Source of the DNA: Nemertoderma westbladi | Lineage: Eukaryota > Animalia > Xenacoelomorpha | Assembly (NCBI GenBank): GCA_032718475.1 | Contig: JAUCBJ010008176.1 | Span: 1 to 64,000 of the forward strand | Direction of reading: 5' to 3' | Length of the DNA: 64,000 nt | In this document: piece by piece, positions 15,489 to 61,310 of the stretch | How the letters are laid out: each line of letters begins with the position of its first letter | How positions within the stretch are numbered: the first letter of the stretch is position 1 | Translations under genes and position numbers: made by a program | The notes under the pieces: model-generated | What the model saw: the letters and a program-made list of their open reading frames with translations, nothing else | Told to the model about the DNA's origin: nothing | The model's database searches: none

Positions 15489-15489
15489 T

Positions 15490-19479: not shown

Positions 19480-19577
19480 TTATATCTGCAGACTAAGTCC
19501 GGCTTTAGCCTTCCCTTTCATTGTGGCACTTAGAACGCTGTTGATGTAAGCTTCGGTATTTCCTGCGATATGTCTCC
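19480..19577 (-). CDS. CREBRF: CREBRF coding exon 7 (terminal)
   Basis: Acceptor TTTCTTGTAG; encodes GRHIAGNTEAYINSVLSATMKGKAKAGLSLQI*, similar to CREBRF VAGQTSEFVNQVL. Confidence 0.85.
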
Positions 19578-22500: not shown

Positions 22501-25500
22501 AGTTGATTTTATATAAACGCTCATTGAACTTATTGTATTTCAACTCACCCACCTACATATAGTTGATTTTATATAAACGCTCATTGAACTTATTGCATTT
22601 CAACTCACCCACCTACATAAGTTGATTTTATATAAACGCTCATTGAATTTATTGTATTTCAACTCACCCACCTACATATGGTTAATTTTATATAAACGCT
22701 CATTGAACTTATTGTATTTCAACTCACCCACCTACATAAGTTGATTTTATATAAACGCTCATTGAACTTATTGTATTTCAACTCACCCACCTACATATAG
22801 TTGATTTTATATAAACGCTCATTGAACTTATTGCATTTCAACTCACCCACCTACATAAGTTGATTTTATATAAACGCTCATTGAATTTATTGTATTTCAA
22901 CTCACCCACCTACATAAGTTGATTTTATATAAACGCTCATTGAATTTATTGTATTTCAACTCACCCACCTACATATGGTTAATTTTATATAAACGCTCAT
23001 TGAACTTATTGTATTTCAACTCACCCACCTACATAAGTTGATTTTATATAAACGCTCATTGAACTTATTGCATTTCAACTCACCCACCTACATAAGTTGA
23101 TTTTATATAAACGCTCATTGAACTTATTGTATTTCAACTCACCAACCTACATATGGTTGATTTTATATAAACGCTCATTGAACTTATTGCATTTCAACTC
23201 ACCCACCTACATAAGTTGATTTTATATAAACGCTCATTGAACTTATTGTATTTCAACTCACCAACCTACATATGGTTGATTTTATATAAACGCTCATTGA
23301 ACTTATTGCATTTCAACTCACCCACCTACATAAGTTGATTTTATATAAACGCTCATTGAACTTATTGTATTTCAACTCACCAACCTACATATGGTTGATT
23401 TTATATAAACGCTCATTGAACTTATTGCATTTCAACTCACACACCTACATAAGTTGATTTTATATAAACGCTCATTGAACTTATTGCATTTCAACTCACC
23501 CACCTACATAAGTTGATTTTATATAAACGCTCATTGAACTTATTGTATTTCAACTCACCCACCTACATATAGTTGATTTTATATAAACGCTCATTGAACT
23601 TATTGTATTTCAACTCACCCACCTACATATAGTTGATTTTATATAAACGCTCATTGAACTTATTGCATTTCAACTCACCCACCTACATAAGTTGATTTTA
23701 TATAAACGCTCATTGAATTTATTGTATTTCAACTCACCCACCTACATATGGTTAATTTTATATAAACGCTCATTGAACTTATTGTATTTCAACTCACCCA
23801 CCTACATATGGGTGATTTTATATAAACGCTCATTGAACTTATTGCATTTCAACTCACCCACCTACATAAGTTGATTTTATATAAACGCTCATTGAATTTA
23901 TTGTATTTCAACTCACCCACCTACATATGGTTAATTTTATATAAACGCTCATTGAACTTCTTGTATTTCAACTCACCCACCTACATATAGTTGATTTTAT
24001 ATAAACGCTCATTGAACTTATTGCATTTCAACTCACCCACCTACATAAGTTGATTTTATATAAACGCTCATTGAATTTATTGTATTTCAACTCACCCACC
24101 TACATATGGTTAATTTTATATAAACGCTCATTGAACTTATTGTATTTCAACTCACCCACCTACATATGGGTGATTTTATATAAACGCTCATTGAACTTAT
24201 TGCATTTCAACTCACCCACCTACATATGGGTGATTTTATATAAACGCTCATTGAACTTATTGCATTTCAACTCACCCACCTACATATGGTTGATTTTATA
24301 TAAACGCTCATTGAACTTATTGTATTTCAACTCACCCACCTACATATGGTTGATTTTATATAAACGCTCATTGAACTTATTGTATTTCAACTCACCCACC
24401 TACATAAGTTGATTTTATATAAACGCTCATTGAACTTATTGTATTTCAACTCACCCACCTACATATGGTTGATTTTATATAAACGCTCATTGAACTTATT
24501 GCATTTCAACTCACCCACCTACATATGGTTGATTTTATATAAACGCTCATTGAATTTTCATCGGCCCAATCAATTCACTATCATTAGGCAATTTATCATT
24601 AAGCGTATTTTTTCCATCTTTCCAAACAGTCTGGGAAACTTCTTATGGGGTATTTTGGTATTCACGTGCTGCGCGAAGACCTTTATTTTTTGACTAGTTT
24701 TTGTAGATTAAATTGAAATGTGGGGAGAAAGGAATGTGGGAAAATGGGAATGTGGGAAGATGGGAATGTGGGAAGGTGGATGGGAATGTGGGAAGGTGGA
24801 TGGGAATGTGAGAAGATGGGGAATTGGGAAGACGGGGATGCAGAAAGATGGGAATGTGGGAAGATGGGAATGCAGGAAGATGGGAATGTGGGAAGATGGA
24901 TGGGAATGTGGGAAAATGGATGGGAATGTGGTAAGATGGATGGGAATGTGGTATGGTGTCTAGATGGGCATGTGATGGAAGATGGATTGGAATGTGGGGA
25001 GATGGATGGGAATGTGAGAAGATGGGGAATTGGGAAGATGGGAATGCAGGAATGTGGGAAGATGGGAATGCAGGAAGATGGAAATATGGGAAGATGGGAA
25101 TGCAGGAAGATGGGAATGTGGGAAGACGGAAATGTGAGAAGATGGGGAATTGATAAGACAGGAATGCAGGAAGATGGGAATGTGGGAAGACGGGAATGCA
25201 GGGAGATGGGAATGTGGGAAGACGGGAATGCAGGAAGATGGGAATGTGGGAAGACGGGAATTGGGAAGACGGGAATGTGGGAAGACGGGAATGTGGGAAG
25301 ATGGGAATGTGGAAAGATGGAAATGCAGGAAGATGGGAATGTGGGAAGACGGGAATGCAGGAAGATGTGAATGTGGGAAGACGGGAATGCAGGAAGATGG
25401 GAATGTGTGAAGACGGGAATGCAGGAAGATGGGAATGTGGGAAGACGGGAATGCAGGAAGATGGGAATGTGGGAAGACGGGAATTGGGAAGACGGGAATG

Positions 25501-28500
25501 TGGGAAGACGGGAATGCAGGAAGATGGGAATGTGGGAAGACGGGAATTTGGAAGACGGGAATGTGGGAAGACTGGAATGTGGGAAGATGGAAATGTGTGA
25601 AGATGGAAATGCTGGAATATGGGAATGTGGGAAGTCGGGAATGCAGGGCGACGGGAATGTGGTAAGGTGTCTATATGGGCATGTGATGGAAGATCGATGG
25701 GAATGTGGTAAGGTGTCTAGATGGGCATGTGATGGAAGAAAGATGGGAATGTGGGAAAATGGATGGGAATGTGGGAAGTTGGGGAATTGGGAAGACGGGA
25801 AAGCAGGAAGATGGGAATGTGGGAAGACGGGAATGCAGGAAGATGGGAATGTGGGAAGACGGGAATGCAGGAAGATGGTAATGTGGGAAGATGGGAATGC
25901 AGGAAGATGGGAATGTGGGAAGACGGGAATTGGGAAGACGGGAATGTGGGAAGACGGGAATGCAGGAAGATGGGAATGTGGGAAGACGGGAATTTGGAAG
26001 ACGGGAATGTGGGAAGACTGGAATGTGGGAAGATGGAAATGTGTGAAGATGGAAATGCTGGAATATGGGAATGTGGGAAGTCGGGAATGCAGGGCGACGG
26101 GAATGTGGTAAGGTGTCTATATGGGCATGTGATGGAAGATCGATGGGAATGTGGGAAGATGGATTGGAATGTGGGAAGATGGGGAATTGGGAAGACGGGA
26201 ATGCAGGAAGATGAGATTGTGGGAAGACGGGAATGTGGTAAGGTGTCTAGATGGGCATGTGATGGAAGATGGATTAGAATGTGGGAAGATGGATGGGAAT
26301 GTGAGAAGATGGGGAATTGGGAAGACGGGAATGCAGGAAGATGGGAATATGGGAAGACTGGAATGTGGTAAGGTGTCTAGATGGACATGTGATGGAAGAT
26401 GGATTGGAATGTGGGAAGATGGATGGGAATGTGAGAAGATGGGGAATTGGGAAGATGGGGAATTGGGTAGACGGGAATGTGGTAAGGTGTCTAGATGGGC
26501 ATGTGATGGAAGATGGATTAGAATGTGGGAAGATGGATGGGAATGCAGGAAGATGGGAATATGGGAAGACGGGAATGTGGTAAGGTGTCTAGATGGACAT
26601 GTGATGGAAGATGGATTGGAATGTGGGAAGATGGATGGGAATGTGAGAAAATGGATGGGAATGTGGGAAGATGGGGAATTGGGTAGACGGGAATGCAGGA
26701 AGATGGGAATGTGGGAAGACGGGAATGCAGGAAGATAATTTGGGTTCTGATTATTTCTACAGATTCTCGCAGTCGTACCGGTCTCATACAGTTTGACACT
26801 GTTGACGATGCTGTTACAGCTGTGTTGCTAGGGAATGTGGTAAGGTGTCTAGATGGGCATGTGATGGAAGATGGATTGGAATGTGGGAAGATGGATGGGA
26901 ATGTGAGAAGATGGGGAATTGGGAAGACGGGAATGCAGGAAGATGGGAATGTGGTAAGGTGTCTAGATGGACATGTGATGGAAGATGGATTGGAATGTGG
27001 GAAGATGGATGGGAATGTGAGAAGATGGGGAATTGGGAAGATGGGAATGTGGTAAGGTGTCTAGATGGGCATGTGATGGAAGATGGATTGGAATATGGGA
27101 AGATGGATGGGAATGTTAGAAGATGGGGAATTGGGAAGATGGGAATGCAGGAAGACGGGAATGCAGGAAGATGGATGGGAATGTGGGAAAATGGATGGGA
27201 ATGTGGGAAGATGGATGGGAATGTGGGAAGATGGATGGGAATGTGGGAAGATGGATGGGAATGTGGGGAAATTGATGAGAATGTGGGAAGATGGGGAATT
27301 GGGAAGATGGGAATGCAGGAAGACGGGAATGCAGGAAGATGGATGGGAATGTGGGAAAATGGATGGGAATGTGGGAAGATGGATGGGAATGTGGGAAGAT
27401 GGATGGGAATGTGGGAAGATGGATGGGAATGTGGGGAAATGGATGGGAAGGTGGGAAGACGGGAATGCAGGAAGATGGGAATGTGGGAAGACGGGAATTG
27501 GGAAGACGGGAATGTGGGAAGGTGTCTAGATGGGCATGTGATGGAAGATGGATTGGAATGTGGGAAGATGGATGGGAATGTGAGAAGATGGGGAATTGGG
27601 AAGATGGGAATATGGTAAGGTGTCTAGATGGGCATGTGATGGAAGATGGATTGGAATATGGGAAGATGGATGGGAATGTGAGAAGATGGGGAATTGGGAA
27701 GACGGGGATGCAGAAAGATGGGAATGTGGGAAGATGGGAATGTGGGAAAATGGGAATGTGGGAAGACGGATGGGGATGTGAGAAGATGGGGAATTGGGAA
27801 GATGGGAATGCAGGAAGACGGGAATGCAGGAAGATGGATGGGAATGTGGGAAAATGGATGGGAATGTGGGAAGATGGATGGGAATGTGGGAAGATGGATG
27901 GGAATGTGGGAAGATGGATGGGAATGTGGGGAAATGGATGGGAATGTGGGAAGACGGGAATGCAGGAAGATGGGAATGTGGGAAGACGGGAATTGGGAAG
28001 ACGGGAATGTGGGAAGACTGGAATGTGGGAAGATGGAAATCTGTGAAGATGGAAATGCTGGAATATAATGTGGGAAGACGGGAATGCAGGGCGACGGGAA
28101 TGTGGGAAGACTGGAATGTGGGAAGATGGAAATGTGTGAAGATGGAAATGCTGGAATATGGGAATGTGGGAAGACGGGAATGCAGGGCGACGGGAATGCA
28201 GGAATATGGATGGAAATGTGGGGAAATTGATGGGAATGTGGGAAGATGGGGAATTGGGAAGATGGGAATGCAGGAAGACGGGAATGCAGGAAGATGGATG
28301 GGAATGTGGGAAAATGGATGGGAATGTGGGAAGATGGATGGGAATGTGGGAAGATGGATGGGAATGTGGGAAGATGGATGGGAATGTGGGAAGATGGTAA
28401 TGGTGGGAGATGGGAATGTGGGAAGACGGGAATGCAGGAAGATGGGAATGTGGTAAGGTGTCTAGATGGACATGTGATGGAAGATGGATTGGAATATGGG

Positions 28501-31500
28501 AAGATGGATGGGAATGTGAGAAGATGGGGAATTGGGAAGACGGGAATGCAGGAAGATGGGAATGTGGGAAGACGGGAATGCAGGAAGATGGGAATGTGGG
28601 AAGACGGGAATGTGGTAAGGTGTCTAGATGGGCATGTGATGGAAGATGGAATGGAATGTGGGAAGATGGATGGGAATGTGCGAAAATGGATGGGAATGTG
28701 GGAAGACGGGAATGTGGTAAGGTGTCTAGATGGGCATGTGATGGAAGATGGATTGGAATGTGGGAAGATGGATGGGAATGTGGGAAAATGGATGGGAATG
28801 TGGGAAGACGGGAATGTGGTAAGGTGTCTAGATGGGCATGTGATGGAAGATGGATTGGAATGTGGGAAGATGGATGAGAATGTGGGAAAATGGATGGGAA
28901 TGTGGTAAGATGGGGAATTGAGTAGACGGGAATGCAGGAAGATGGGAATGTGGGAAGACGGGAATGCAGGAACATGGGAATGTGGGAAGACGGGAATGTG
29001 GTAAGGTGTCTAGATAGGCATGTGATGGAAGATGGATTGGAATGTGGGAAGATAGATGGGAATGTGGGAAAATGGATGGGAATGTGGGAAGACAGGAATG
29101 TGGTAAGGTGTCTAGATGGACATGTGATGGAAGATGGATTGGAATGTGGGAAGATGGATGAGAATGAGGGAAAATGGATGGGAATGTGGGAAGATGGATG
29201 GGAATGCGGGAAGATGGATGGGAAAGTGGGGAGATGGATTGGAATGTGGGAAGATGGATGGGAATCTGGGAAGAAGGATGGGAATGTGGAAAGATAGATG
29301 GGAATATTGGAAGATGATAATGCGGGAAGACGGGAATGTGGTAAGGTGTCTAAATAGGCATGTGATGGAATATAGATGGGAATGTGGGAAGATGGATGGG
29401 AATGTGAGAAGATGGATGGGAATGTGGGAAGGTGGATGGGAATGTGGGGAGATGGATGGGAATGTGGGGAGATGGATGGGAATGTGGGAAGATGGATGGG
29501 AATGTAGGAAGATGGATGGGAATGTAGGAAGGTGGATGGGAATGTGGAAATAAGGATGGCAATGTGGAAAGATGGATGGGAATGTGGGAAGATGGATGGG
29601 AATGTGGAAAGATGGATGGGAATGTGAAAAGATGGATAGGAATGTGGAAAGATGTATGGGACTGTGAGAAGATTGGGAATTGGGAAGACGGGAATGCAGG
29701 AAGATGGGAATGTGGGAAGACGGGAATGTGGTAAGGTGTCTAGATGGGCATGTGATGGAAGATGGATTGGAATGTGGGAAGATGGATGGGAATGTGGGAA
29801 AATGGATGGGAATGTGGGAAGACGGGAATGTGGTAAGGTGTCTAGATGGGCATGTGATGGAAGATGGATTGGAATGTGGGAAGATGGATGAGAATGTGGG
29901 AAAATGGATGGGAATGTGGGAAGATGGGGAATTGGGTAGACGGGAATGCAGGAAGATGGGAATGTGGGAAGACGGGAATGTGGTAAGGTGTCTAGATGGG
30001 CATGTGATGGAAGATGGATTGGAATGTGGGAAGATGGATGGGAATGTGGGAAAATGGATGGGAATGTGGGAAGACGGGAATGTGGTAAGGTGTCTAGATG
30101 GGCATGTGATGGAAGATGGATTGGAATGTGGGAAGATGGATGGGAATGTGGGAAAATGGATGGGAATGTGGGAAGACGGGAATGTGGTAAGGTGTCTAGA
30201 TGGGCATGTGATGGAAGATGGATTGGAATGTGGGAAGATGGATGAGAATGAGAGAAAATGGATGGGAATATTGGGAAGATGGATGGGAATGTGGGAAGAT
30301 GGATGGGAAAGTGGGGAGATGGATTGGAATGTGGGGAGATGGATGGGAATCTGGGAAGATGGATGGGAATGTGGGAAGATAGATGGGAATATTGGAAGAT
30401 GATAATTCGGGAAGACGGGAATGTTGTAAGGTGTCTAAATAGGCATGTGATGGAAGATAGATGGGAATGTGGGAAGATGGATGGGAATGTGAGAAGATGG
30501 ATGGGAATGTGGGGAGATGGATGGGAATGTGGGGAGACGGATGGGGATGTGAGAAGATGGGGAATTGGGAAGATGGGAATGCAGGAAGACGGGAATGCAG
30601 GAAGATGGATGGGAATGTGGGAAAATGGATGGGAATGTGGGAAGATGGATGGGAATGTGGGAAGATGGATGGGAATGTGGGAAGATGGATGGGAATGTGG
30701 GGAAATGGATGGGAATGTGGGAAGACGGGAATGCAGGAAGATGGGAATGTGGGAAGACGGGAATTGGGAAGACGGGAATGTGGGAAGACTGGAATGTGGG
30801 AAGATGGAAATCTGTGAAGATGGAAATGCTGGAATATAATGTGGGAAGACGGGAATGCAGGGCGACGGGAATGTGGGAAGACTGGAATGTGGGAAGATGG
30901 AAATGTGTGAAGATGGAAATGCTGGAATATGGGAATGTGGGAAGACGGGAATGCAGGGCGACGGGAATGCAGGAATATGGATGGAAATGTGGGGAAATTG
31001 ATGGGAATGTGGGAAGATGGGGAATTGGGAAGATGGGAATGCAGGAAGACGGGAATGCAGGAAGATGGATGGGAATGTGGGAAAATGGATGGGAATGTGG
31101 GAAGATGGATGGGAATGTGGGAAGATGGATGGGAATGTGGGAAGATGGATGGGAATGTGGGAAGATGGTAATGGTGGGAGATGGGAATGTGGGAAGACGG
31201 GAATGCAGGAAGATGGGAATGTGGTAAGGTGTCTAGATGGACATGTGATGGAAGATGGATTGGAATATGGGAAGATGGATGGGAATGTGAGAAGATGGGG
31301 AATTGGGAAGACGGGAATGCAGGAAGATGGGAATGTGGGAAGACGGGAATGCAGGAAGATGGGAATGTGGGAAGACGGGAATGTGGTAAGGTGTCTAGAT
31401 GGGCATGTGATGGAAGATGGAATGGAATGTGGGAAGATGGATGGGAATGTGCGAAAATGGATGGGAATGTGGGAAGACGGGAATGTGGTAAGGTGTCTAG

Positions 31501-34500
31501 ATGGGCATGTGATGGAAGATGGATTGGAATGTGGGAAGATGGATGGGAATGTGGGAAAATGGATGGGAATGTGGGAAGACGGGAATGTGGTAAGGTGTCT
31601 AGATGGGCATGTGATGGAAGATGGATTGGAATGTGGGAAGATGGATGAGAATGTGGGAAAATGGATGGGAATGTGGTAAGATGGGGAATTGAGTAGACGG
31701 GAATGCAGGAAGATGGGAATGTGGGAAGACGGGAATGCAGGAACATGGGAATGTGGGAAGACGGGAATGTGGTAAGGTGTCTAGATAGGCATGTGATGGA
31801 AGATGGATTGGAATGTGGGAAGATAGATGGGAATGTGGGAAAATGGATGGGAATGTGGGAAGACAGGAATGTGGTAAGGTGTCTAGATGGACATGTGATG
31901 GAAGATGGATTGGAATGTGGGAAGATGGATGAGAATGAGGGAAAATGGATGGGAATGTGGGAAGATGGATGGGAATGCGGGAAGATGGATGGGAAAGTGG
32001 GGAGATGGATTGGAATGTGGGAAGATGGATGGGAATCTGGGAAGAAGGATGGGAATGTGGAAAGATAGATGGGAATATTGGAAGATGATAATGCGGGAAG
32101 ACGGGAATGTGGTAAGGTGTCTAAATAGGCATGTGATGGAATATAGATGGGAATGTGGGAAGATGGATGGGAATGTGAGAAGATGGATGGGAATGTGGGA
32201 AGGTGGATGGGAATGTGGGGAGATGGATGGGAATGTGGGGAGATGGATGGGAATGTGGGAAGATGGATGGGAATGTAGGAAGATGGATGGGAATGTAGGA
32301 AGGTGGATGGGAATGTGGAAATAAGGATGGCAATGTGGAAAGATGGATGGGAATGTGGGAAGATGGATGGGAATGTGGAAAGATGGATGGGAATGTGAAA
32401 AGATGGATAGGAATGTGGAAAGATGTATGGGACTGTGAGAAGATTGGGAATTGGGAAGACGGGAATGCAGGAAGATGGGAATGTGGGAAGACGGGAATGT
32501 GGTAAGGTGTCTAGATGGGCATGTGATGGAAGATGGATTGGAATGTGGGAAGATGGATGGGAATGTGGGAAAATGGATGGGAATGTGGGAAGACGGGAAT
32601 GTGGTAAGGTGTCTAGATGGGCATGTGATGGAAGATGGATTGGAATGTGGGAAGATGGATGAGAATGTGGGAAAATGGATGGGAATGTGGGAAGATGGGG
32701 AATTGGGTAGACGGGAATGCAGGAAGATGGGAATGTGGGAAGACGGGAATGTGGTAAGGTGTCTAGATGGGCATGTGATGGAAGATGGATTGGAATGTGG
32801 GAAGATGGATGGGAATGTGGGAAAATGGATGGGAATGTGGGAAGACGGGAATGTGGTAAGGTGTCTAGATGGGCATGTGATGGAAGATGGATTGGAATGT
32901 GGGAAGATGGATGGGAATGTGGGAAAATGGATGGGAATGTGGGAAGACGGGAATGTGGTAAGGTGTCTAGATGGGCATGTGATGGAAGATGGATTGGAAT
33001 GTGGGAAGATGGATGAGAATGAGAGAAAATGGATGGGAATATTGGGAAGATGGATGGGAATGTGGGAAGATGGATGGGAAAGTGGGGAGATGGATTGGAA
33101 TGTGGGGAGATGGATGGGAATCTGGGAAGATGGATGGGAATGTGGGAAGATAGATGGGAATATTGGAAGATGATAATGCGGGAAGACGGGAATGTTGTAA
33201 GGTGTCTAAATAGGCATGTGATGGAAGATAGATGGGAATGTGGGAAGATGGATGGGAATGTGAGAAGATGGATGGGAATGTGGGGAGATGGATGGGAATG
33301 TGGGGAGATGGATGGGAATGTGGGGAGATGGATGGGAATGTGGGAAGATGGATGAGAATGTGGGAAGATGGATGGGAATGTGGAACGATGTATGGGAATG
33401 TGGGAACATGGATGGGAATGTGGGAAGATGGATGGGAATGTAGGAAGGTGGATGGGAATGTGGAAATAAGGATGGGAATGTGGAAAGATGGATGGGAATG
33501 TGGGAAAATGGATGGGAATGTGAGAAGATGGATGGGAATGTGGAAAGATGCATGGGAATGTGGGAAAATGGATGGGAATGTGGGAATGTAGGAAGATGGA
33601 TGGGAATGTGGAAATATGGATGGGAATGTGGAAAGATGGATGGGAATGTAAGAAGATGGATGGGAATGTGGAAAGATGGATAGGAATGTGGGAAGATGGA
33701 TGGGAATGTGGGAAGATGGATGGGAATGTTGGAAGATGGAGGGGAATGTGGAAAGATGGATGGAATGTGGGGAGATGGATGAGAATGAGAGAAAATGGAT
33801 GGGAATGTGGGAATATGGATGGGAATGTAGGAAGATGGATGGGAATGTGGAAATATGGATGGGAATGTGGAAAGATGGATGGGAATGTAAGAAGATGGAT
33901 GGGAATGTGGAAAGATGGATAGGAATGTGGGAAGATGGATGGGAATGTGGAAAGATGGATGGGAATGTAAGAAGATGGATGGGAATGTGGAAAGATGGAT
34001 AGGAATGTGGGAAAATGGATGGGAATGTGGGAATATGGATGGGAATGTAGGAAGATGGATGGGAATGTGGAAATATGGATGGGAATGTGGAAAGATGGAT
34101 GGGAATGTAAGAAGATGGATGGGAATGTGGAAAGATGGATAGGAATGTGGGAAGATGGATGGGAATGTGGAAAGATGGATGGGAATGTAAGAAGATGGAT
34201 GGGAATGTGGAAAGATGGATAGGAATGTGGGAAGATGGATGGGAATGTAGGAAGGTGGATGGGAATGTGGAAATAAGGATGGCAATGTGGAAAGATGGAT
34301 GGGAATGTGGGGAGATGGATGGAAGGTGGAAAGATGGATGGGAATGTGGAAAGATGGATGGGAATGTGGGAAAATGGATTGGAATGTTGGAAGACGGATT
34401 GGAATGTCGGAAGATGGTAACGGTGGGAGATGGGAATGCGGGATCCAACTCCAGGCCAAGTTTGATTTCATATAAACTCACTATATTCCAATTCCAGTCC

Positions 34501-37500
34501 CTGCAGATTGATTTTAAATAAACTCACTGCATTCCAACTCCAGTCCTTCGAGGTTGATTTTATTTATATAAACGCACTGTATTCAAACCACAGTCATTAG
34601 AGGTTGATTTTATTTATATAAACTCACTGTATTCCAACTCCAGTCCTTAGAGGTTGATTTTATTTATATAAACTCACTGCATTCCAACCACAGTCCTTAG
34701 AGGTTGGTTTTATTTATATAAACTCACTGTATTCCAACTCCAGTCATTAGAGGTTGATTTTATTTATATAAACTCTTTGTATTCCAACCACAGTCCTTAG
34801 AGGTTGATTTTATTTATATAAACTCACTGTATTCCAACCACAGTCCTTAGAGTTTGATTTTATTTATATAAACTCACTGTATTCCAACTCCAGTCCTTAG
34901 AGGTTGATTTTATTTATATAAACTCACTATATTCCAACCACAGTCCTTAGAGGTTTATTTTATTTATATAAACTCACTGTATTCCAACTCCAGACCTTAG
35001 AGGTTGATTTTATTTATATTAACTCACTTTATTCCAACTCCAGTCCTTAGAGATTGATTTTATTTATATAAACTCACTGTATTCCAACCACAGTCCTTAG
35101 AGTTTTGATTTTATTTATATAAACTCACTGTATTCAAAGCACAGTGCTAAGAGGTTGATTTTATTTATATAAACTCATTGTATTCCAACTCCAGTCCTTA
35201 GAGGTTGATTTTATTTATATAAACTCACTGTATTCCAACTCCAGTCCTTAGAGGTTGATTTTATTTATATAAACTCACTGTATTCAAACCACAGTCATTA
35301 GAGGTTGATTTTATTTATATAAACTCACTGTATTCCAACTCCAGTCCTTAGATGTTGATTTTATTTATATAAACTCACTGTATTCAAACCACAGTCATTA
35401 GAGGTTGATTTTATTTATATAAACTCACTGTATTCCAACTCCAGTCCTTAGATGTTGATTTTATTTATATAAACTCACTGTATTCAAAGCACAGTGCTAA
35501 GAGGTTGATTTTATTTATATAAACTCATTGTATTCCAACTCCAGTCCTTAGAGGTTGATTTTATTTATATAAACTCACTGTATTCCAACTCCAGTCCTTA
35601 GAGGTTGATTTTATTTATATAAACTCACTGTATTCAAACCACAGTCATTAGAGGTTGATTTTATTTATATAAACTCACTGTATTCCAACTCCAGTCCTTA
35701 GATGTTGATTTTATTTATATAAACTCACTGTATTCCAACTCCAGTCCTTAGAGGTTGATTTTATTTATATAAACTCACTGTATTCCAACTCCAGTCCTTA
35801 GAGGTTGATTTTATATATATAAACTCATTGTATTCCAACTCCAGTCCTTAGAGGTTGATTTTATTTATATAAACTCACTGTATTCAAACTCCAGTCCTTA
35901 GAGGTTAATTTTATTTATATTAACTCACTTTATTCCAACTCCAGTCCTTAGAGGTTGATTTTATTTATATAAACTCATTGTATTCCAACCACAGTCCTTA
36001 GAGGTTGGTTTTATTTATATAAACTCACTTTATTTCAACTCCAGTCCTTAGAGGTTGATTTTATTTATATAAACTCACTATATTCCAACCACAGTCCTTA
36101 GAAGTTGATTTTATTTATACAAACTCACTGCATTCCAACTCCAGTCCTTAGGTTGATGTTATTTATATAAACTCACTGTATTCAAACTCCAGTCCTTAGA
36201 GGTTGATTTTATTTATATTAACTCACTTTATTCCAACTCCAGTCCTTAGAGGTTGATTTTATTTATATAAACTCATTGTATTCCAACCACAGTCCTTAGA
36301 GGTTGGTTTTATTTATATAAACTCACTTTATTTCAACTCCAGTCCTTAGAGGTTGATTTTATTTATATAAACTCACTATATTCCAACTTCAGTCCTTAGA
36401 AGTTGATTTTATTTATACAAACTCACTGCATTCCAACTCCAGTCCTTAGAGGTTGGTTTTATTTATATAAACTCACTTTATTTCAACTCCAGTCCTTAGA
36501 GGTTGATGTTATTTATATAAACTCATTGTATTCCAACCACAGTCCTTAGAGGTTGGTTTTATTTATATAAACTCACTTTATTTCAACTCCAGTCCTTAGA
36601 GGTTGATGTTATTTATATAAACTCACTGTATTCCAACCACAGTCCTTAGAGGTTGATTTTATTTATATAGACTCACTGTATTCCAACCCCAGTCCTTAGA
36701 GGTTGATTGTATTTATATAAACACACTGCATTCCAAATCCAGTCCTTAGAGGTTGATTTTATTTATATAAACTCACTGTATTCAAACCACAGTTCTTGGA
36801 GGTTGATTTTATTTATATAAACTCACTTTATTCCAACTCCAGTCCTTAGAGGTTGATTTTATTTATATATTTAAACTCACTGCATTCCAACTCCAGTCCT
36901 TAGAGGTTGATTTTATTTATATAAACTCACTACATTCCAACCACAGTCCTTAGAGGTTGATTTTATTTATATAAACTCACTTTATTCCAACTCCAGTCCT
37001 TAGAGGTTGATTGTATTTATATAAACTCACTGCATTCCAACTCCAGTCCATACAGTTTGATTTTATTTATATAAACTCACTTTATTCCAACTCCAGTCCT
37101 TAGAGGTTGATTTTATTTATATAAACTCACTGTATTCCAACCACAGTCCTTAGAGTTTGATTTTATTTATATAAACTCACTGTATTCCAAACACAGTCCT
37201 TAGAGGTTGATTTTATTTATATAAACTCACTGTATTCCAACTCCAGTCCTTAGAGGTTGATTTTATTTATATAAACTCACTGCATTCCAACCACAGTCCT
37301 TAGAGGTTGGTTTTCTTTATATAAACTCACTGTATTCCAACTCCAGTCATTAGAGGTTGATTTTATTTATATAATCTCACTGTATTCCAACCACAGTCCT
37401 TAGTGGTTGATTTTATTTATATAAACTCACTGTATTCCAACTCCAGTTCTTAGAGGCTGATTTTATTTATATAAACTCACTGCATTCCAACCACAGTCAT

Positions 37501-40500
37501 TAGAGGTTGATTTTATTTATATAAACTCACTGTATTCAAACTCCAGTCCTTAGAGGTTGATTTTATTTATATAAACTCACTTTATTCCAACTCCAGTCCT
37601 TAGAGGTTGATATTATTTATATAAACTCACTGTATTCCAACCACCGCCTTAGAGGTTGATTTTATTTATATAAACTCACTGTATTCCAACCACAGTCCTT
37701 AGAGGTTGATTTTATATATATAAACTCACTGCATTCCAACTCGTCCTTAGAGGTTGATTTTAATTATATAAACTCACTGTATTCAAACTCCAGTCCTTGA
37801 GGTTGATTTTATTTATATAAACTCACTGCATTCCAACCACAGTCCTTAGAGGTTGGTTTTCTTTATATAAACTCACTGTATTCCAACTCCAGTCATTAGA
37901 GGTTGATTTTATTTATATAAACTCACTGTATTCCAACCACAGTCCTTAGAGGTTGATTTTATTTATATAAACTCACTGTATTCCAACTCCAGTTCTTAGA
38001 GGTTGATTTTATTTATATAACCTCACTGTATTCCAACCACAGTCCTTAGAGGTTGATTTTATTTATATAAACTCACTGTATTCCAACTCCAATCCTTAGA
38101 GGTTGATTTTATTTATATAAACTCACTGTATTCCAACCACAGTCCTTAGAGGTTGATTTTATTTATATAAACTCACTGTATTCCAACCACAGTCCTTAGA
38201 GGTTGATTTTATTTATATAAACTCACTGTATTCCAACTCCAGTCCTTCGAGGTTGATTTTATTTATATAAACTCACTGCATTCCAACCACAGTCATTAGA
38301 GGTTGATTTTATTTATATAAACTCACTGTATTCCAACTCCAGTCCTTAGAGGTTGATTTTATTTATATAAACTCACTGTATTCCAACTCCAGTCCTTAGA
38401 GGTTGATTTTATTTATATAAACTCACTGTATTCCAACTCCAGTCCTTCGAGGTTGATTTTATTTTTATAAACTCACTGCATTCCAACCACAGTCATTAGA
38501 GGTTGATTTTATTTATATAAACTCATTGTATTCCAACTCCAGTCCTTAGAGGTTGATTTTATTTATATAAACTCACTGCATTCCAACCACAGTCCTTAGA
38601 GGTTGATTTTATTTATATTAACTCACTGCATTCCAACCACAGTCATTAGAGGTTGATTTTATTTATATAAACTCACTGTATTCCAACTTCAGTCCTTAGA
38701 GGTTGATTTTATTTATATAAACTCACTGCATTCCAACCACAGTCCTTAGAGGTTGATTTTATTTATATAAACTCACTGCATTCCAACCACAGTCATTAGA
38801 GGTTGATTTTATTTATATAAACTCACTGTATTCCAACTCCAGTCCTTAGAGGTTGATTTTATTTATATAAACTCACTGTATTCCAACTCCAGTCCTTAGA
38901 GGTTGATTTTATTTATATAAACTCACTGTATTCCAACCACCGCCTTAGAGGTTGATTTTATTTATATAAACTCACTGCATTCCAACCACAGTCATTAGAG
39001 GTTGATTTTATTTATATAAACTCACTGTATTCCAACTCCAGTCCTTAGAGGTTGATTTTATTTATATAAACTCACTGTATTCCAACCACAGTCCTTAGAG
39101 GTTGATTTTATTTATATAAACTCACTGTATTCCAACTCCAGTCCATACAGTTTGATTTTATTGCTCTCGTGTTGTGCCTTTTTCTTGAGCCGACAAGCCC
39201 GACTTGCTAGTCTGTTTTTCTCACGACGGACCGCGTCAGATTGTTTGGATCCCGCACCCTGTGGCTTTGGTTCAATTGCGTGGAGTTGGTCGTTGATTCG
39301 TTGTAGCTCATTTCCTAGTAACAGCAGTCTTCGGGGATTGGGCACAAAATCTTTGCTGGAAATATTTGACACTTCGGAGAGATGACGTTGTCGAGAATAT
39401 TTGCTTGAGGCCTCCGATAGGTGGCGCTGCCGAGATTGCTGACCTATTATAATATTGTTCCAAATATAATTTTATGTATTGAATCTCTAATTTAATATTT
39501 GTTAATTTTCATATTTATATATTTTATCATCAAAGGTGGGCTAAATGTAATTCGTAAAGGTAGTTCGGGCAGTGGTGTGGTGGTGCTTGGTGGCTACCAT
39601 ACCATACTACTACGGGATGCCAACTACACTAGTTACGAATTGCGGACCATTTTTTCCAATATTACACGTAGAGTCAGCTGGACTTATTTTTGCAATAATG
39701 TCTTAAATTTGAAGGTTGTAAAACAAGGCATAACATTCCATTAGTTTGTTTTACACTTTATGTTAAAAATTAATAAAAATAACCATCACAAAAATATAAG
39801 TGGGTGGGGGACTCTTATAATTCATCCCACTCCAGGGGAAAATATACACCAATAACTAACAGCGGGCAATTCAAAACTGAAACAATACAAAACTGTCTAT
39901 GTAATCCGAATTTTCCTTATTTGTTCTGCCGTATATTTTCAACAGTTTTGGTTAGAATTAAGTGCTACTGCACAATGTAACCTGCTCCTTTCCCTACAAC
40001 AATAGAACAACTTACCTAAAATATCGAGGGACCCGAATGACTGACAAGCCGAGTAACAACTACTAGATTCCGAATTATTGCGATTGCGTCTCTCTGTCTT
40101 TGTTCGCGTTTTATAAACTTTAATATCCCAAAGTTTAGCGACCACTGAAGGGTGCTTTGTGTCTGGAGTTTCCATGGATGACTCAACAGGGTCTGGGATA
40201 GTAAGAATATGTATATAAATATATAAGGCCAAGAGGCCAAAGAAAGAAAGTTAGAAACCATACCCAAAATAGAAAAATAACTTTATTACGAAAGAAACAA
40301 TTAATTAATCGTCTTTAGGTTCACATCTTCAGGCCATTATCACAACATTCCTTCTACGGGGTATTCTGGTTGCCATCGTGATAGGGAATGCCGCCCTCAT
40401 CACGGCTATGACAGGCTCTTCGTCAAGGGAGTAATAATTTATTGAATTCCAGGGTCCAGTTTAAAGCGTTTAGTTAACAATGAGAACTGATTTCAATTGT

Positions 40501-43500
40501 TATATTGAATTAATTAATTACAATAGTCGGTCGAAGCCGGAGGCAACCCAAACAAAAAGGCTACTTCTATAAATTAATTATGAATAATATAGGTATATTT
40601 AATATTTATCTCAAATAAAAAATACATACAGCTATGATAACTGTGTGTATAATCTGTCCCATGTTGTATCATAGCTGTACGTTTAGTCTGTCCCATGTTG
40701 TATCATAGCTGTATGTTTTGGGTCCCATGTTGTATCATAGCTGTATGTTTAGTCTGTCCCGTGTTGTATTATAGCTGTATGTTTAGGGTCCCATGTTGTA
40801 TCATAGTTGTATGTTTAGTCTGTCCCATGTTGCATCATAGCTTTATGTTTAGGGTCCCATGTTGTATCATAGTTGTATGTTTAGTTAGGGTCCCATGTTG
40901 TATCATATCTGTATGTTTAGGGTCCCATGTTGTATCATAGTTGTATGTTTAGTCTGTCCCATGTTGTATCATAGCTGTATGTTTAGGGTCCCATGTTGTA
41001 TCATATCTGTATGTTTAGGGTCCCATGTTGTATCATAGTTGTATGTTTAGTCTGTCCCATGTTAGCTGTATGTTTAGTCTGTCCCATTTTGTATCATAGT
41101 TGTATGTTTAGTCTGTCCCATGTTGTATCATAGCTGTATGTTTAGGGTCCCATGTTGTATCATAGCTGTATGTTTGTTTAGTCTGTCCCATGTTGTATCA
41201 TAGTTGTATGTTTAGTCTGTCCCATGTTGTATCATAGCTGTATGTTTAGTCTGTCCCATTTTGTATCATAGTTGTATGTTTAGTCTGTCCTATGTTGTAT
41301 CATAGCTGTATGTTTAGTCTGTCCCATGTTGTATCATAGTTGTATGTTTAGGGTCCCATGTTGTATCACAGCTCTATGTTTAGTCTGTCCCATGTTGTAT
41401 CATAGCTGTATGTTTAGTCTGTCCCATTTTGTATCATAGTTGTATGTTTAGTCTGTCCTATGTTGTATCATAGCTGTATGTTTAGTCTGTCCCATGTTGT
41501 ATCATAGTTGTATGTTTAGGGTCCTATGTTGTATCACAGCTCTATGTTTAGTCTGTCCCATGTTGTATCATAGCTGTATGTTTAGTCTGCCCCATGTTGT
41601 ATCATAGCTGTATGTTTAGTCTGTCCCTTGTTGTATCATAGTTGTATGTTTAGGGTCCCATGTTGTATCATAGTTGTATGTTTAGTCTGTCCCATGTTAG
41701 CTGTATGTTTAGTCTGTCCTATTTTGTATCATAGTTGTATGTTTAGTCTGTCCTATGTTGTATCATAGCTGTATGTTTAGTCCGACCCATGTTGTATCAT
41801 AGCTGTCTGTTTAGGGTCCTATGTTGTATCATAGTTGTATGTTTAGTCTGTCCCATGTTATATCATAGTTGTATGTTTAGTCTGTCCCATATTGTATCAT
41901 AGCTGTATGTTTAGGGTCCTTTATGTGGGGCAGGGCGGTGGGACATTGCGGTGGGACAGGGCGGTGGGACAGGGCGGTGGGGCAGGGCGGTGGGGCAGGG
42001 CGGTGGGGCAGGGCGGTGGGACAGGGCGGTGGGACAGGGCGGTGGGACAGGGCGATGGGGTAGGGCGGTGCGACAGGGCGGTAGGGCAGGGCGGTGGGGC
42101 AGGGCGGTGGGGCAGGGCAGGCGCAGAGAGGGGGAGGGGGGGGGGGGGGGGGGAGGCAGCCCCCATACACCTGGCCTCGTACGCCTATATGGTTAGTAGT
42201 ATGAATAATATAATTTAAAATGAAAGTAATTGACAGTAATGTATGTACGGCAGTATAATTGCTCACCATCCCCTAAGATTTCCTCACTATCGTCGCTTAT
42301 GTTATCATTATCTTCGGATAAATCGTCTATTGAGTCCATATAACTCGATGCGCTCGTGCTGTAATTACCGCTGTCATTGCGACAACGATATGGGTGTATG
42401 AGGGGAACTACAGTTGTCGGGGAAGTTAATGTCTGTAAAATAATAAAGAACCAGGTTTCACTACAACTTTAGTTAAGTACATAGTTCTGCAACGTTATTC
42501 ACATTATTCAATATGCATATGATATGAAGTGTGGCCTTCGCGCAGCATGTGAGACTAATTTATGACAAGTAACAACTCGAAAGGATTACATAAAATATGA
42601 GAAGATTCCATCTGATAAATTATTTTTCGCTCTCCATTTTCCCTCTAGACTTTGTAACAGCAGTGGAAGAACGTTTAATGTTTAGACCTTCAGCCCTCTG
42701 CCTCTAGCGTGAAGTCTGTTGAACTGATGGTGCCTAAAATCTGTCAAAAATTTCCACTTTTGGTCCTATTTATGTCTAGTCTACAAATTTTCAACTCAAC
42801 AGATGTAATCACACATTATTGTCCCTACTACTACTACTACTACGACCACCCTAATACGTGTCTCCTTAAAGAATGAACCGATACTATGACTTAGATCCAT
42901 AGACAGACATGGAGAGTAAATAGAACACGCTGTTCCTTTCCCACCACAGATTGATGGAATTAATAAAATAATAACAAAAGAAGGATTAGTCTGAGAAATC
43001 AAATATAGTGATAATTAATTATAATTATAATATACACCCCCACTCGGGGTAAATTAAACATAAGAAACAGTAAGAGTTAAACAGTAAGTAACAGTAACCG
43101 GGAGTATACACTATGCAGAAATAATACACGTACGTAACGGGGACACAGTAATTGAAACAGTAAGTACAGTATACATACCGGGAATATATAACAATATAAT
43201 TAATAAACCTACTGTAGTAAGTTGATGTAGGTTGTAGCTGTGAGAGTGAGTGTAGCAGTTAATTTTGGTGTGTGTCAGTGTTTGGTTGTGTACCGTTTTT
43301 GATGGGTGACAGTAATTTGGATTATGTATGTAGTGTGTGAGTGGGGCGGTCTATGAGGCAAGCTGAGAGAGCGAGGGGACGTTGGGGCAGTCAAGGACGT
43401 GATATCGAAAGGCACAGGAGTTGTGGCAGTATTTGCATTGGCAGTCCGGTGTTAGTTCGTGGAATGGCTTGTTGTTAAGACACAATTTATGGTGAAAGCC

Positions 43501-46500
43501 GTGTGCTGTAGTTCTAGTAGTGATGTGACGGTTTTTCTGACCAGGAAGCTTCCAGGTATTGGAAGTGAAGGCAGGACCGAGAATGTATTGTTCTATGTTA
43601 AAGTTGTTAATGCGTTCGAGCCTGTGCTGTCTGTATTGGGATTGGATTTCGTTGTCGAATATGTTAGGATGTTTTTCTATAATAGATTCTACTAGTGTTG
43701 GTTCATTTACAAGTTTTAGTGCCAATGTGGTGGATGTCGAAATATGTAGACCTAACAGACGTTTAATAAATGTAGCTTTGATTTTGTCAAGTTCCTTTAG
43801 GTGCTTTACTTTTAGAAATTTTGCGAAAACTGGGAGGGCATATTCTATAATGGGTGCTATTTTTACGTTGAATATTTTAAGGCCTGTTTCTACCGAAAGT
43901 AAGGGTAACATATTGAATGAACCGATGAGTTTGAAAGCTTTTTCCTTTTTAGACTTAATGTGGTTCGTAAAGCAGAGTGTTGGTTGTAGAATTACTCCTA
44001 AGTATTCATATTGATTTACTATTTTGATGTTTTCGTTTCCGTATGTGAATGTGTCTGTAAGAGCTAGTCTACCCGATCGTCTGAATTTTATTATTTTAGT
44101 TTTTGTTAAGTTAACTACCATGCCGTTTGAAGTGCACCAGTCATGTAAGATATTTAAACCAAGTTGGACATGTTCACGGTTGTTTGAGTACAGTACGAGA
44201 TCGTCAGCATAGAATACAAACCTAAGTAAAGATATTGTTCGTCGTAAGAGGTATGCGAGATCGGCTATAAAAATAATAAATAATGTAGGTGATAGGCAGT
44301 CCCCTTGTAAAACCTTGTAATATAGTGATAATAATGATGCATTCGTATAATAGACGCGGCATCAATAAACAAGTTATCCAGTATCCCTCCAATAACTGGC
44401 GTATCTTTCCAAATTAATATTTAATATTGTTGCCAATTGCAATTCCACTTAATAATAAAGATAATCTCACAATCACTATCCAATCCACTGCCACTCCCCG
44501 GCTCAGATAGGGGGGGAAACTGGACGCAATAAAATTCATCCCTCTACAGGGGAAATTGGACGCAAATAACAGAGGATTACTCTCAAAAATAAAACTGTAA
44601 CCTGTTATATTGTGTTTACACTGTTTAGTTTATTGTTTTGGTTAAAATAACGTGCCACTGTAACCTGCTCCTTTCCCTAAATTGAAAAGGTCAGTGAGAA
44701 CCCTTGAACGCAATGGCACTCCGTCAGTGAGAACCCTGAACGCAATGGCACTCCGTCAGTGAGAACCCTGAACGCAATGGCACTCCGTCAGTGAGAACCC
44801 TTGAACGCAATGGCACTCCGTCAGTGAGAACCCTTGAACGCAATGGCACTCCGTCAGTGAGAACCCTTGAACGCAATGGCACTCCGTCAGTGAGAACCCT
44901 GAACGCAATGGCACTCCGTCATTGAGAACCCTGAACGCAATGGCACTCCGTCATTGAGAACCCTGAACGCAATGGCAACTCCGTCAGTGAGAACCCTGAA
45001 CGCAATGGCACTCCGTCAGTGAGAACCCTTGAACGCAATGGCACTCCGTCAGTGAGAACCCTGAACGCAATGGCACTCCGTCATTGCGAACCCTTGAACG
45101 CAATGGCACTCTGTCAGTGAGAACCCTGAACGCAATGGCACTCCGTCATTGAGAACCCTGAACGCAATGGCACTCCGTCAGTGAGAACCCTTGAACGCAA
45201 TGGCACTCCGTCAGTGAGAACACTTGAACGCAATGGCACTCCGTCATTGAGAACCCTGAACGCAATGGCACTCCGTCAGTGAGAACCCTTGAACGCAAGG
45301 GCACTCCGTCAGTGACAACCCTTGAACGCAATGGCACTCCGTCAGTGAGAACCCTTGAACGCAATGGCACTCCGTCAGTGAGAACCCTTGAACGCAATGG
45401 CACTCATTCAGTGAGAACACTTGAACGCAATGGCACTCCGCCAGTGAGAACCTGAAAGCAATGGCACTCAGTCAGTGAGAACCCTTGAAGGCAATGGCAC
45501 TCCGTCAGTGAGAACCCTTGAACGCAATGGCACCCCGTCAGTGACAACCCTTGAACGCAATGGCACCCCGTCAGTGAGAACCCTTGAACGCAATGGCACT
45601 CCGTCAGTGAGAACCCTTGAACGCAATGCCACTCCGTCAGTAAAAACCTTGAACGCAATGGTACTCCGTCAGTGAGAACCCTTGAACGCAATGGCACTCC
45701 GTCAGTGACAACCCTTGAACGTAATGGCACTCCGTCAGTGAGAACCCTTGAACGCAATGGCACTCCGTCAGTGACAACCCTTGAACGTAATGGCACTCCG
45801 TCAGTGAGAACCCTTGAACGCAATGGCACTCCGTCAGTGAGAACCCTTGAACGCAATGCCACTCCGTCAGTAAAAACCTTGAACGCAATGGTACTCCGTC
45901 AGTGAGAACCCTTGAACGCAATGGCACTCCGTCAGTGAAAACCTTGAACGCAATGGTACTCCGTCAGTGAGAACCCTTGAACGCAATGGCACTCCGTCAG
46001 TGAGAACCCTTGAACGCAATGGCACTCCGTCAGTGAGAACCCTGAACGCAATGGCACTCCGTCAGTGAGAACCCTGAATGCAATGGCACTCCGTCAGTGA
46101 GAACCCTTGAACGCAATGCCACTCCGTCAGTGAAAACCTTGAACGCAATGGCCGATTCCTGGCATTCCATTTTTTGATTCTCTTCTGCCGGTTAAAAGTG
46201 ACAGTTTTAATTAAGTTTTTTTAAAAGTTTTTAATTAAAGTGACCTTTTAATTTTATGATTTTTGATTTTAATTTGTTTGTGTTCGGCAAAGATGAATTG
46301 AATCACACTACAAACAAAATAAAGATACAAAGAGAGATAGAGAGAGATAGGACAAACTTACCATTCGCCTCACCGGACTTCCTGTACCCCGGAGGTCCGC
46401 TCGCCTCACCGGACTTCCTGTACCCCGGGCGTCCGCAACAAGCTGGCCTTTTGGTCTATCGAGACTGCCGAGTCGAGGTCTGGGCGGCAGACGGGGTCGG

Positions 46501-46977
46501 GGCGCGTCGAGGCTGCACACCCGTGGCCGGGACCACGGCGACGGTGACGAGGGACTCATGGATGTGTCGGGGAACCCGGGAGGGTATGCGGCGGGCGGCC
46601 CGTCCGACGGACAAAAGCGCTCCTCCGGGAAGTCCTCAAGTTGCAGCCGCATCGTCTGGGATGTTTGCTGGAATTGAGGCGGCGGCGGTCTGCACTGGAA
46701 CTCTGATGGCGGTTGTCTGTACGACTGAGACTGCAGGCAGAACGGTTGCTGTGAATTCTGGGAAATCTGCATTTCTTCGGTCTTGAAATAGGATGTTTGC
46801 TGTACATATTGCTGAAATTGCTGTGCAGGGAACTCCTGCTTGACACGCTGCTGTTGTAATTCGTGATTTATTTTCTGATGTCTCTGTAACTGCTCTTGCC
46901 GCTGCAGTTGTCTCTGTTGCTGTAGCTGCTGTTGTTGCTGATGTTGTTGCTGTTGCTGCTGTTGCTGTAGCTGCTGA

Positions 46978-47021
<44 letters not shown>

Positions 47022-61061: not shown

Positions 61062-61310
61062 TTAGAACACGTGTAGAGGAAAAGAGGTACCTTGAACGTT
61101 AAGAGTTGGTCGATGCATAGCAATTAGTAAACTTTATTTAATGAGAAGGTCGTAGTTAGTAGGTGCATGAGCGAGGGACGTAAAGTCTTCTATAGAGAAG
61201 GGATGGTCGGCCTCTGTGGCATGTACCCGCACAGTAGAGTGTTTAGGGGCCACTGTTTTCCCGGTTCGTGGAGATAGACCTAAGTGCTCACAGATTCTGA
61301 CCTTAAAATA
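61062..61310 (-). mobile_element. Penelope-like retroelement 3' fragment (C-terminal half of GIY-YIG endonuclease)
   Basis: FKVRICEHLGLSPRTGK...HSTVRVH...DHPFSIEDFTSL...LLIK*SLLIAMHRPTLNVQGTSFPLHVF*, with a stop at the conserved E. Confidence 0.75.

What the first reader, a model, noticed from the sequence alone, without database searches (positions are those of the whole stretch)
34441..39162. Splice-donor satellite: the CREBRF bZIP exon end plus its 5' splice site is tandemly amplified about 90 times
Seen: on the sense (-) strand exon 5 ends AAT AAA ATC AAA CTG TAT GGA CTG GAG TTG GAA TAC A|GTGAGTTTATATA. The next 4.7 kb of intron consists of about 90 copies of this 50-nt junction (37 nt exon plus 13 nt intron), nearly all keeping GTGAGT. 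Most copies carry AAC CTC TAA in place of AAA CTG TAT, so the Tyr codon has become a stop. Reading past the real donor reaches a stop at once (AGT GAG TTT ATA TAA). Inference: the pre-mRNA presents about 90 U1-binding sites like the true one, and any downstream donor gives a premature stop before the zipper exon (NMD target or truncated bZIP). It could act as a splicing rheostat, a U1 sponge or telescripting platform protecting the giant intron, or a copy-number-tunable regulator; it could also be neutral.
Basis: partly seen in the sequence, partly recalled or inferred. Interest (0 to 1): 0.85.

Follow-up and report, generated by a model that had tools for sequence, protein, structure and literature searches.

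The report
Splice-donor "mirage" repeat in CREBRF intron
The end of one exon of an animal's CREBRF gene, splice signal included, is copied about 94 times into the next intron, but the one spliced transcript assembly seen uses the first signal, so this is likely a harmless, large example of a repeat type already known from lancelets and human genes.

Summary
There are 94-95 copies of a 50-nt unit (37 nt exon, 13 nt intron) at 39162-34441 on the minus strand, and 82 of 95 keep GTGAGT. Contigs from a second sample and study also hold the array. The gene is CREBRF/REPTOR.

The regulatory reading is not supported. The only transcript-like run gives one spliced contig, which joins the first donor (39126) to exon 6 (20448), and it has no repeat contigs. 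GT is no better kept than other positions (+1 G ranks 44th of 50). The intron is ancient: 16 related loci have it at the same position, none with an array.

Two points are new. A 60-nt array at the far end of the same intron (51 copies) is a diverged sister that has lost the ancestral donor in all 51 copies. The 50-nt array also holds 94 AATAAA poly(A) hexamers, so it adds as many poly(A) signals as U1 sites.

This is a "mirage" or exon-intron minisatellite (lancelet Adh3 and globins; human F7, CBS, IFI6), likely neutral. The scan has already reported many such arrays, some larger, elsewhere in this genome (unchecked notes).

The parts
39126..39443 (-). CREBRF/REPTOR coding exon 5 (318 nt): basic region and first turn of the zipper, ends in a phase-1 junction after Tyr
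   Evidence: Homologues named CREBRF/REPTOR; Pfam bZIP_2, E 8.7e-05; covered by the spliced contig of X4
39113..39162 (-). Unit 1 of the array: 37 nt of exon plus the true donor ACA|GTGAGT (GT at 39125-39124). The weakest of the gene's six donors by predicted U1 pairing (-5.7 against -8.1 to -10.5 kcal/mol)
39112..39114 (-). In-frame TAA reached on read-through (S-E-F-I-stop); formed across the unit 1/unit 2 border
34519..39112 (-). Units 2-93 of the 50-nt array, 0-6 differences from consensus; most begin with AATAAA and end with the donor copy
37018..37067 (-). Unit 43, the only internal unit with all three exon-type letters (remnant of the seed or conversion from unit 1)
34441..34518 (-). 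Degenerate terminal units 94-95, partly exon-type, abutting the next satellite
   Evidence: the unit 93/94 junction is also in run X2
24717..34417 (.). Unrelated 16-20-nt purine/pyrimidine-skewed satellite (9.7 kb) between the two sister arrays
   Evidence: no match to exon edges
21508..24554 (-). 59-60-nt array, 51 copies, homologous to the junction unit. Ancestral donor position reads AT or AG in 51 of 51; a new GTGAGT stands elsewhere in 51 of 51 and TAG|GTGGGT in 37
   Evidence: Local score 38 against 18.1 +/- 3.5, 0 of 600 shuffles reach it
20287..20448 (-). Coding exon 6 (162 nt), rest of the zipper; acceptor of the 18,677-nt intron
   Evidence: X4 contig covers exactly this exon, and its loose end is the exon-type end of exon 5; in register with homologues
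17302..19577 (-). Last coding exon (stop at 19480) and 3' UTR; the end is estimated from the contig length, ATTAAA near 17350
40016..48257 (-). Coding exons 1-4 (48257-48156, 47855-46362, 42432-42267, 40192-40016); the seven exons give an open 838-aa frame
   Evidence: junctions 3/4 and 4/5 seen in X4; junctions 1/2 and 2/3 predicted only

Best explanation
A 50-nt piece spanning the end of CREBRF exon 5 and its splice donor is tandemly repeated about 94 times into the intron, and the array is likely a neutral passenger because splicing takes the first donor and removes the copies with the intron. Shown: the repeat, its seed in conserved coding sequence, an older intron, first-donor use in one transcript assembly, decay of the copies. 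Inferred: (1) a duplication across the junction put every extra copy inside the intron, so it escaped selection. (2) Unequal exchange or slippage expanded and homogenised the array, leaving the far edge degenerate. (3) An early offshoot became the 60-nt sister array, now separated by a 9.7-kb unrelated satellite, and lost the ancestral donor. (4) The first donor wins through exon definition and 5'-to-3' order, as shown for human F7. (5) Rare use of a later donor would give a premature stop and likely decay. (6) The donor copies may incidentally mask the AATAAA in each unit.
For: Spliced contig of X4 (3727 nt, depth 156.8) joins 39126 to 20448 with the exon-type letters; it is the only record on exon 6 (1 of 1), and none of X4's 5 laid records is a repeat unit. 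GTGAGT identity 0.976 against 0.948 for the rest (0.967 without two dimorphic columns, median 0.978), rank 16 of 50 windows; +1 G rank 44 of 50; derived alleles per position 1.0 against 1.05 (units 2-92); intact GT rank 36 of 50. Only 10 of 94 units are free of stops in the exon frame. The sister array has no GT at the ancestral site in 51 of 51. The same phase-1 intron, with the zipper exon resuming 57-3036 nt later, stands in 16 of 23 donor-like loci, none with an array. 42% of the window and 94% of this intron are tandem arrays, and 5 of the gene's 7 intronic arrays are unrelated to exon edges; chance of at least one junction-seeded array among 6 is about 0.25. Precedent: F7, where only the most upstream site was used with up to 12 monomers (PMC1557585); lancelet mirages do not disturb splicing (PMC3087553).
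Against: The RNA evidence is one run, as contigs, labelled 'DNA?' in the listing; contigs drop rare forms and NMD would hide downstream use. The true donor is the gene's weakest and is matched by 47 of 93 copies with an identical 11-mer. In CBS and IFI6 the next two sites are used (as cited in PMC1557585). GTGAGT is slightly above the mean, and homogenisation makes the conservation test weak. The sister array carries a new, stronger donor-like motif in 51 of 51 units (-10.4 kcal/mol for the commonest), which neutrality explains only as chance. Unchecked earlier notes report many such arrays in this genome, which may exceed chance.
Confidence: 0.8

Rival explanations
1. U1/poly(A) switch. Each unit puts an AATAAA 13 nt behind a donor copy. 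When U1 is plentiful the signals are masked; when it is short the transcript would be cleaved in the array, giving a stable mRNA for a CREBRF that keeps the basic region but lacks most of the zipper.
For: 94 AATAAA in 4.7 kb against 9 in 5,347 nt of the gene's non-repeat introns; spacing of 13 nt in 71 cases. In the sister array both the ancestral donor (51 of 51) and most AATAAA (6 left) are gone. Telescripting as defined in a passage of PMC7544216.
Against: AATAAA comes from the Asn-Lys codons of the exon and is not specially kept (rank 15 of 50). No repeat-bearing contig in X4, although 94 copies would pool their words. The UGUA element present in the exon version is lost in most copies (5 in the array).
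Confidence: 0.07
2. Splicing rheostat. Later donors are used at some rate, the products carry the S-E-F-I stop and are degraded, so copy number or splicing state tunes CREBRF dose.
For: The donor is weak and 47 copies have an identical 11-mer. The stop lies 198 nt upstream of the last junction for donor 2, an NMD geometry by the recalled 50-nt rule. CBS and IFI6 use two further sites (cited in PMC1557585).
Against: Only the first donor is seen. In F7 the number of monomers did not change the choice. GT is not conserved above background. Early stops on read-through are common without arrays (11 of 23).
Confidence: 0.07
3. On origin only, compatible with neutrality of function: this genome has a mutational process that targets exon edges (for example transcription- or splicing-coupled breaks repaired by duplication), rather than random duplications that merely survive there.
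For: Earlier notes, unchecked, report junction arrays in at least 11 other genes of this genome. PMC3087553 calls the generating mechanism unclear and possibly general in lancelets.
Against: In this gene one seeded junction of 12 is within chance (about 0.25). The notes come from windows picked for this feature. No genome was held for a count.
Confidence: 0.35
4. Assembly artefact: a short duplication inflated by the assembler.
For: No spanning read was seen; depth ratios in sample S1 (38) are below 94.
Against: 56 distinct unit sequences among 95; repeat contigs and the far-end junction stand in a second sample and study.
Confidence: 0.02

Closest known systems
Human F7 intron 7 37-bp VNTR, with the IFI6 (6-16), CBS intron 13, lamin B2 and PDGF arrays it cites (PMC1557585; parts 1 and 3 of 6 read)
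   Same: First unit spans the exon-intron border; identical donor copies follow; the most upstream site is used (F7, lamin B2, PDGF).
   Different: 5-25 copies there against 94 here; 37 nt of exon copied here against 4 nt in F7; a diverged sister array and an AATAAA in most units here; CBS and IFI6 use two further sites, not seen here.
Lancelet 'mirage' minisatellites: Adh3, globins BflGb6 and BflGb9, troponin C, PGBD5 (PMC3087553 and PMC3902484; matching passages read, supplements not seen)
   Same: Tandem copies of an exon-intron boundary, many but not all with splice signals, normal splicing, homogenised interior and divergent edge units.
   Different: 2-7 copies in the globin and PGBD5 cases against 94; another animal (lineage not determined); length polymorphism shown there, not established here.
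Intron gain by tandem duplication of a proto-splice site (Rogers model, as described in PMC3087553)
   Same: A duplicated piece of exon lies inside an intron, and TACAG stands at both ends of the intron.
   Different: The intron is older than the array: same position and phase in 16 related loci without arrays.
U1 telescripting against intronic polyadenylation (one passage of PMC7544216; otherwise recalled)
   Same: U1-type sites next to poly(A) hexamers in a long intron.
   Different: No binding or cleavage evidence here; the array itself supplies the hexamers.

Membership tests
Mirage / exon-intron-spanning donor minisatellite | Tandem unit spans a real exon-intron boundary, first unit being the exon end | tested here: met
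Mirage / exon-intron-spanning donor minisatellite | Many but not all copies keep the splice signal | tested here: met
   82 of 95 GTGAGT, 86 of 95 GT
Mirage / exon-intron-spanning donor minisatellite | Regular splicing is undisturbed; the most upstream donor is used | tested here: met
   One spliced contig in one run, 1 of 1 records on exon 6; minor forms cannot be excluded
Mirage / exon-intron-spanning donor minisatellite | Homogenised interior with divergent edge units | tested here: met
   Units 2-93 differ by 0-6, units 94-95 by 12 and 24; block repeats of 3-5 units
Mirage / exon-intron-spanning donor minisatellite | Copy number varies between alleles or cells | tested here: inconclusive
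   Depth ratios 38, 38 (S1) and 77 (S2) differ, but contig depth is no copy number
Intron gained by tandem duplication (Rogers model) | Intron is absent at this position in other lineages | tested here: not met
   Same phase-1 intron in 16 of 23 donor-like loci; many of them are close kin of each other
Splicing-regulatory tandem repeat (rheostat) | Downstream donors are used, or copy number changes splicing | tested here: inconclusive
   None seen in one run of contigs; no raw reads, no NMD block
Splicing-regulatory tandem repeat (rheostat) | Donor motif kept better than the rest of the unit | tested here: not met
   Rank 16 of 50 for GTGAGT, 44 of 50 for +1 G; 36 of 50 for GT
U1 telescripting / intronic polyadenylation cassette | U1 binds the copies and poly(A) ends appear in the array when U1 is short | not testable with these tools
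   Only motif counts and absence of repeat contigs in one run

The most novel reading that the evidence does not exclude
The array is a self-shielding poly(A) switch: about 90 interleaved pairs of U1 site and AATAAA just before the zipper exon let U1 supply decide between full-length CREBRF and a stable, zipper-less isoform. More broadly, donor-type mirages can grow so large in this genome because their own U1 sites mask the poly(A) signals they copy, and the sister array that lost its donor also shed its AATAAA and gained a new donor-like site.
Probability: 0.07. Interest if true: 0.65.

Novelty: new member of a known kind. Interest (0 to 1): 0.27.

Why it matters
As it stands it is a clean natural test of splice-site choice: a weak donor wins over about 80 near-identical copies and over 51 stronger sites further down the same intron, extending the F7 result beyond mammals and to more copies. 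The two sister arrays record how such a repeat ages, losing the donor without visible harm. If the poly(A) switch were real, it would be a repeat-built way to make a truncated nutrient-sensing transcription factor. The larger open question, why this genome has so many junction arrays, needs the whole genome rather than this locus.

Tried and rejected
Whole-genome search: no genome held, so no genome-wide enrichment test. Run search: no RNA holder listed; run X4, labelled 'DNA?', proved to hold a spliced contig covering exons only, so I treat it as transcript-derived (inference). Special RNA structure: six units fold no better than shuffles (z -1.44, 15 of 200 shuffles as good). Intron creation by the duplication: rejected. 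Satellite-first origin of the exon end: rejected, since N94, K95, K97, L98, G100, L101, E104 are invariant in 14 aligned homologues. Backup-donor function: rejected, since every later donor gives a stop. Coding constraint on copies: none (derived alleles 10, 11, 15 by codon position). Other arrays of the gene as mirages: 5 of 7 show no match to exon edges. Related loci: 8 of 80 lacked my motif and were dropped, duplicates were merged to 53, of which 30 show no donor (likely transcripts or intron-less); L001 is a likely transcript counted among the 23; L037's single recurrence is one 4-mismatch match, not an array. Literature: searches returned no paper on a CREBRF junction array or on mirages carrying poly(A) signals; PMC10078293 (passages) and PMC6934747 (passages) added nothing specific. 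Most subscription papers and all supplements were not seen. Earlier-findings look-ups by words and near this place returned nothing.
Full report
OBSERVATION. The minus strand from 39162 shows a 50-nt unit repeated head to tail. Tandem Repeats Finder reports 94.1 copies at 34461-39162 with 90% matches. Segmentation gives 95 units, 56 of them distinct; units 2-93 differ from the consensus at 0-6 positions and units 94 and 95 at 12 and 24. GTGAGT is intact in 82 of 95, GT in 86, and TAA at positions 16-18 in 84. Unit 1 differs from the consensus at three positions and is the end of a coding exon. The array is real DNA: summed contig depth on unit 1 is 38, 38 and 77 times the unique flank in runs X1, X3 and X2, and X2, from another sample and study, holds the junction of units 93 and 94. 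The tool warns that such depth is no copy number, and no record spanning the array was seen.

THE GENE. The exon's 105 residues hit 158 proteins, many named CREBRF or REPTOR, and Pfam bZIP_2. Seven coding exons give an open 838-residue frame, and exon 6 continues the zipper in register with 12 homologues. The copied codons are ancestral: N94, K95, K97, L98, G100, L101 and E104 are invariant in 14 aligned sequences. So the satellite came from the exon, not the reverse. The animal's lineage was not determined.

THE INTRON IS OLD. Of 80 metagenome loci, 8 lacked my motif and the rest merged to 53 distinct; 23 show a donor-like motif at the same phase-1 position. In 16 of the 23 the zipper exon resumes 57-3036 nt later; many of these are near kin, so the number of independent lineages is smaller. 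None has an array at the junction. A fish protein, P0078, also breaks off from the family right at this point. The intron here is 18,677 nt and 94% tandem repeat. The duplication therefore did not create the intron.

WHICH DONOR IS USED. No run was listed as RNA, but X4 holds a 3727-nt contig (depth 156.8) that skips the 572-nt intron 4, covers only exons and goes from 39126 straight into exon 6. I infer that X4 is transcript-derived. On exon 6 it is X4's only record, and its loose end carries the exon-type letters of unit 1. Unit 43 shares three of those letters but differs at position 35, so it is excluded. All 5 records of X4 laid are accounted for (this contig and four pieces of a dispersed repeat), and the depth on unit 1, 119.2, equals 38/50 of 156.8. 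So no repeat-bearing contig was seen. This is one run, and contigs drop rare forms; products destroyed by NMD would not show.

IS THE DONOR KEPT BY SELECTION? In units 2-92 (units 1 and 93-95 left out) GTGAGT averages 0.976 identity against 0.948 for the rest, 0.967 without two dimorphic columns, median 0.978. It ranks 16th of 50 windows, the essential +1 G ranks 44th of 50 (lost in 8 of 91), and derived alleles per position are 1.0 against 1.05. Intact GT ranks 36th of 50. Homogenisation weakens this test, but it gives no sign of selection. Only 10 of 94 units are stop-free in the exon frame. The stop on read-through is ordinary: 11 of the 23 related loci stop within 20 codons.

(a) A second array at 21508-24554, 51 copies of 59-60 nt, is homologous to the junction unit: local score 38 against 18.1 +/- 3.5, reached by 0 of 600 shuffles, and its best exon-edge match is donor 5. 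At the ancestral donor position none of its 51 units has GT. A 9.7-kb unrelated satellite lies between the two. This argues that the donor is dispensable in such copies. Against that, all 51 units have a new GTGAGT elsewhere, predicted to pair with U1 better than the true donor (-10.4 against -5.7 kcal/mol for the commonest; U1 end recalled). Four of its six letters are inherited from the exon's Glu-Leu codons, so chance is plausible. The intron thus holds 133 GTGAGT, none but the first seen used. (b) The unit starts with AATAAA, from the Asn-Lys codons: 94 hexamers in the array against 9 in 5,347 nt of non-repeat intron, 13 nt behind the preceding donor copy in 71 cases. The array therefore adds as many poly(A) signals as U1 sites. 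AATAAA is not specially kept (rank 15 of 50).

MECHANISM. Most likely a tandem duplication across the junction placed its extra copy in the intron, where it was free to expand by unequal exchange or slippage (inferred from block repeats, and degenerate edge units). Splicing takes the first donor (seen once), plausibly through exon definition and 5'-to-3' order. The window is 42% arrays, and 5 of the gene's 7 intronic arrays have nothing to do with exon edges; a rough calculation gives 0.25 for at least one junction-seeded array among six. No function is needed to explain this locus. Confidence 0.8.

KNOWN KINDS. PMC1557585 (parts 1 and 3 of 6 read) describes the human F7 intron 7 VNTR, whose first unit spans the boundary: only the most upstream site is used, and adding or removing monomers did not change this. 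It cites IFI6 (25 pseudo-sites) and CBS, where two further sites are used, and lamin B2 and PDGF, where none are. PMC3087553 and PMC3902484 (passages) describe lancelet 'mirages' that do not disturb splicing, show divergent edge units and have an unclear origin. I was led to the mirage papers by earlier notes of this scan and read the passages myself. This array meets four of five tested features of that kind; length variation is inconclusive. It has more copies than the published cases read, but unchecked notes report arrays of 400 to 2,100 copies in other genes of this genome.

VERDICT. Real, correctly described, a new member of a known kind, likely neutral. Interest 0.27. The boldest reading not excluded is a U1-controlled poly(A) switch for a zipper-less CREBRF (probability 0.07, interest 0.65 if true). 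Whether this genome duplicates exon edges more than chance allows is the better question and could not be tested without the genome.

Noticed in passing
window 21508-24554 (-): 37 of 51 units of the 60-nt sister array contain TAG|GTGGGT, an acceptor-like AG directly followed by a strong donor-like site. The upstream pyrimidine share (0.50) is within the low end of the gene's true acceptors (0.45-0.82). Use as intermediate (recursive) splice points would not show in mature mRNA.
   Followed up: partly
window 46365-46436 (-): A 36-nt duplication at the end of coding exon 2 gives two in-frame CCG|GTGAGG donor-like sites just before the predicted donor ATG|GTAAGT. It could be a two-copy mirage or a coding duplication; which donor is used was not checked.
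   Followed up: no
window 39145-39151 (-): All three differences between the exon and the array consensus fall on third codon positions; about 1 in 27 by chance, noticed after the fact.
   Followed up: no
window 37018-37067 (-): Unit 43 carries all three exon-type letters in mid-array; units 41, 82, 87, 94, 95 carry some. Suggests conversion from the exon or remnants of the seed.
   Followed up: partly
window 46870-47250 (-): Coding exon 2 holds a glutamine-rich run of over 100 residues with internal higher-order repeats.
   Followed up: no
window 43351-44361 (-): 5'-truncated reverse transcriptase frame (Pfam RVT_1, E 2.5e-15) in intron 2, on the gene's strand: a LINE-type remnant.
   Followed up: partly
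window 39809-39856, 39945-39996, 20495-20541: Short pieces of a dispersed repeat at high depth with many different flanks in the runs laid; likely a small non-autonomous element.
   Followed up: no
window 11819-13020 (+): An open frame of 400 residues with WD40-like repeats, converging on CREBRF's 3' end; it resembles AAMP by recollection only, not searched.
   Followed up: no
window 61134-63995: A 64-nt array (41 copies, runs off the window end) abuts and overlaps an 88-residue frame that recalls a Penelope-type endonuclease fragment from memory; Pfam found nothing.
   Followed up: partly
window 14264-16222, 40633-42118, 44690-46152, 53689-54324: Further unrelated minisatellites (35, 32, 34, 13, 33, 45 nt), often in abutting pairs; arrays cover 42% of the window.
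   Followed up: partly
window 39319, 39586, 40291, 40338: Single-letter differences between runs, so the locus is polymorphic; 39319 T>C is shared by X3 and the spliced contig of X4.
   Followed up: no
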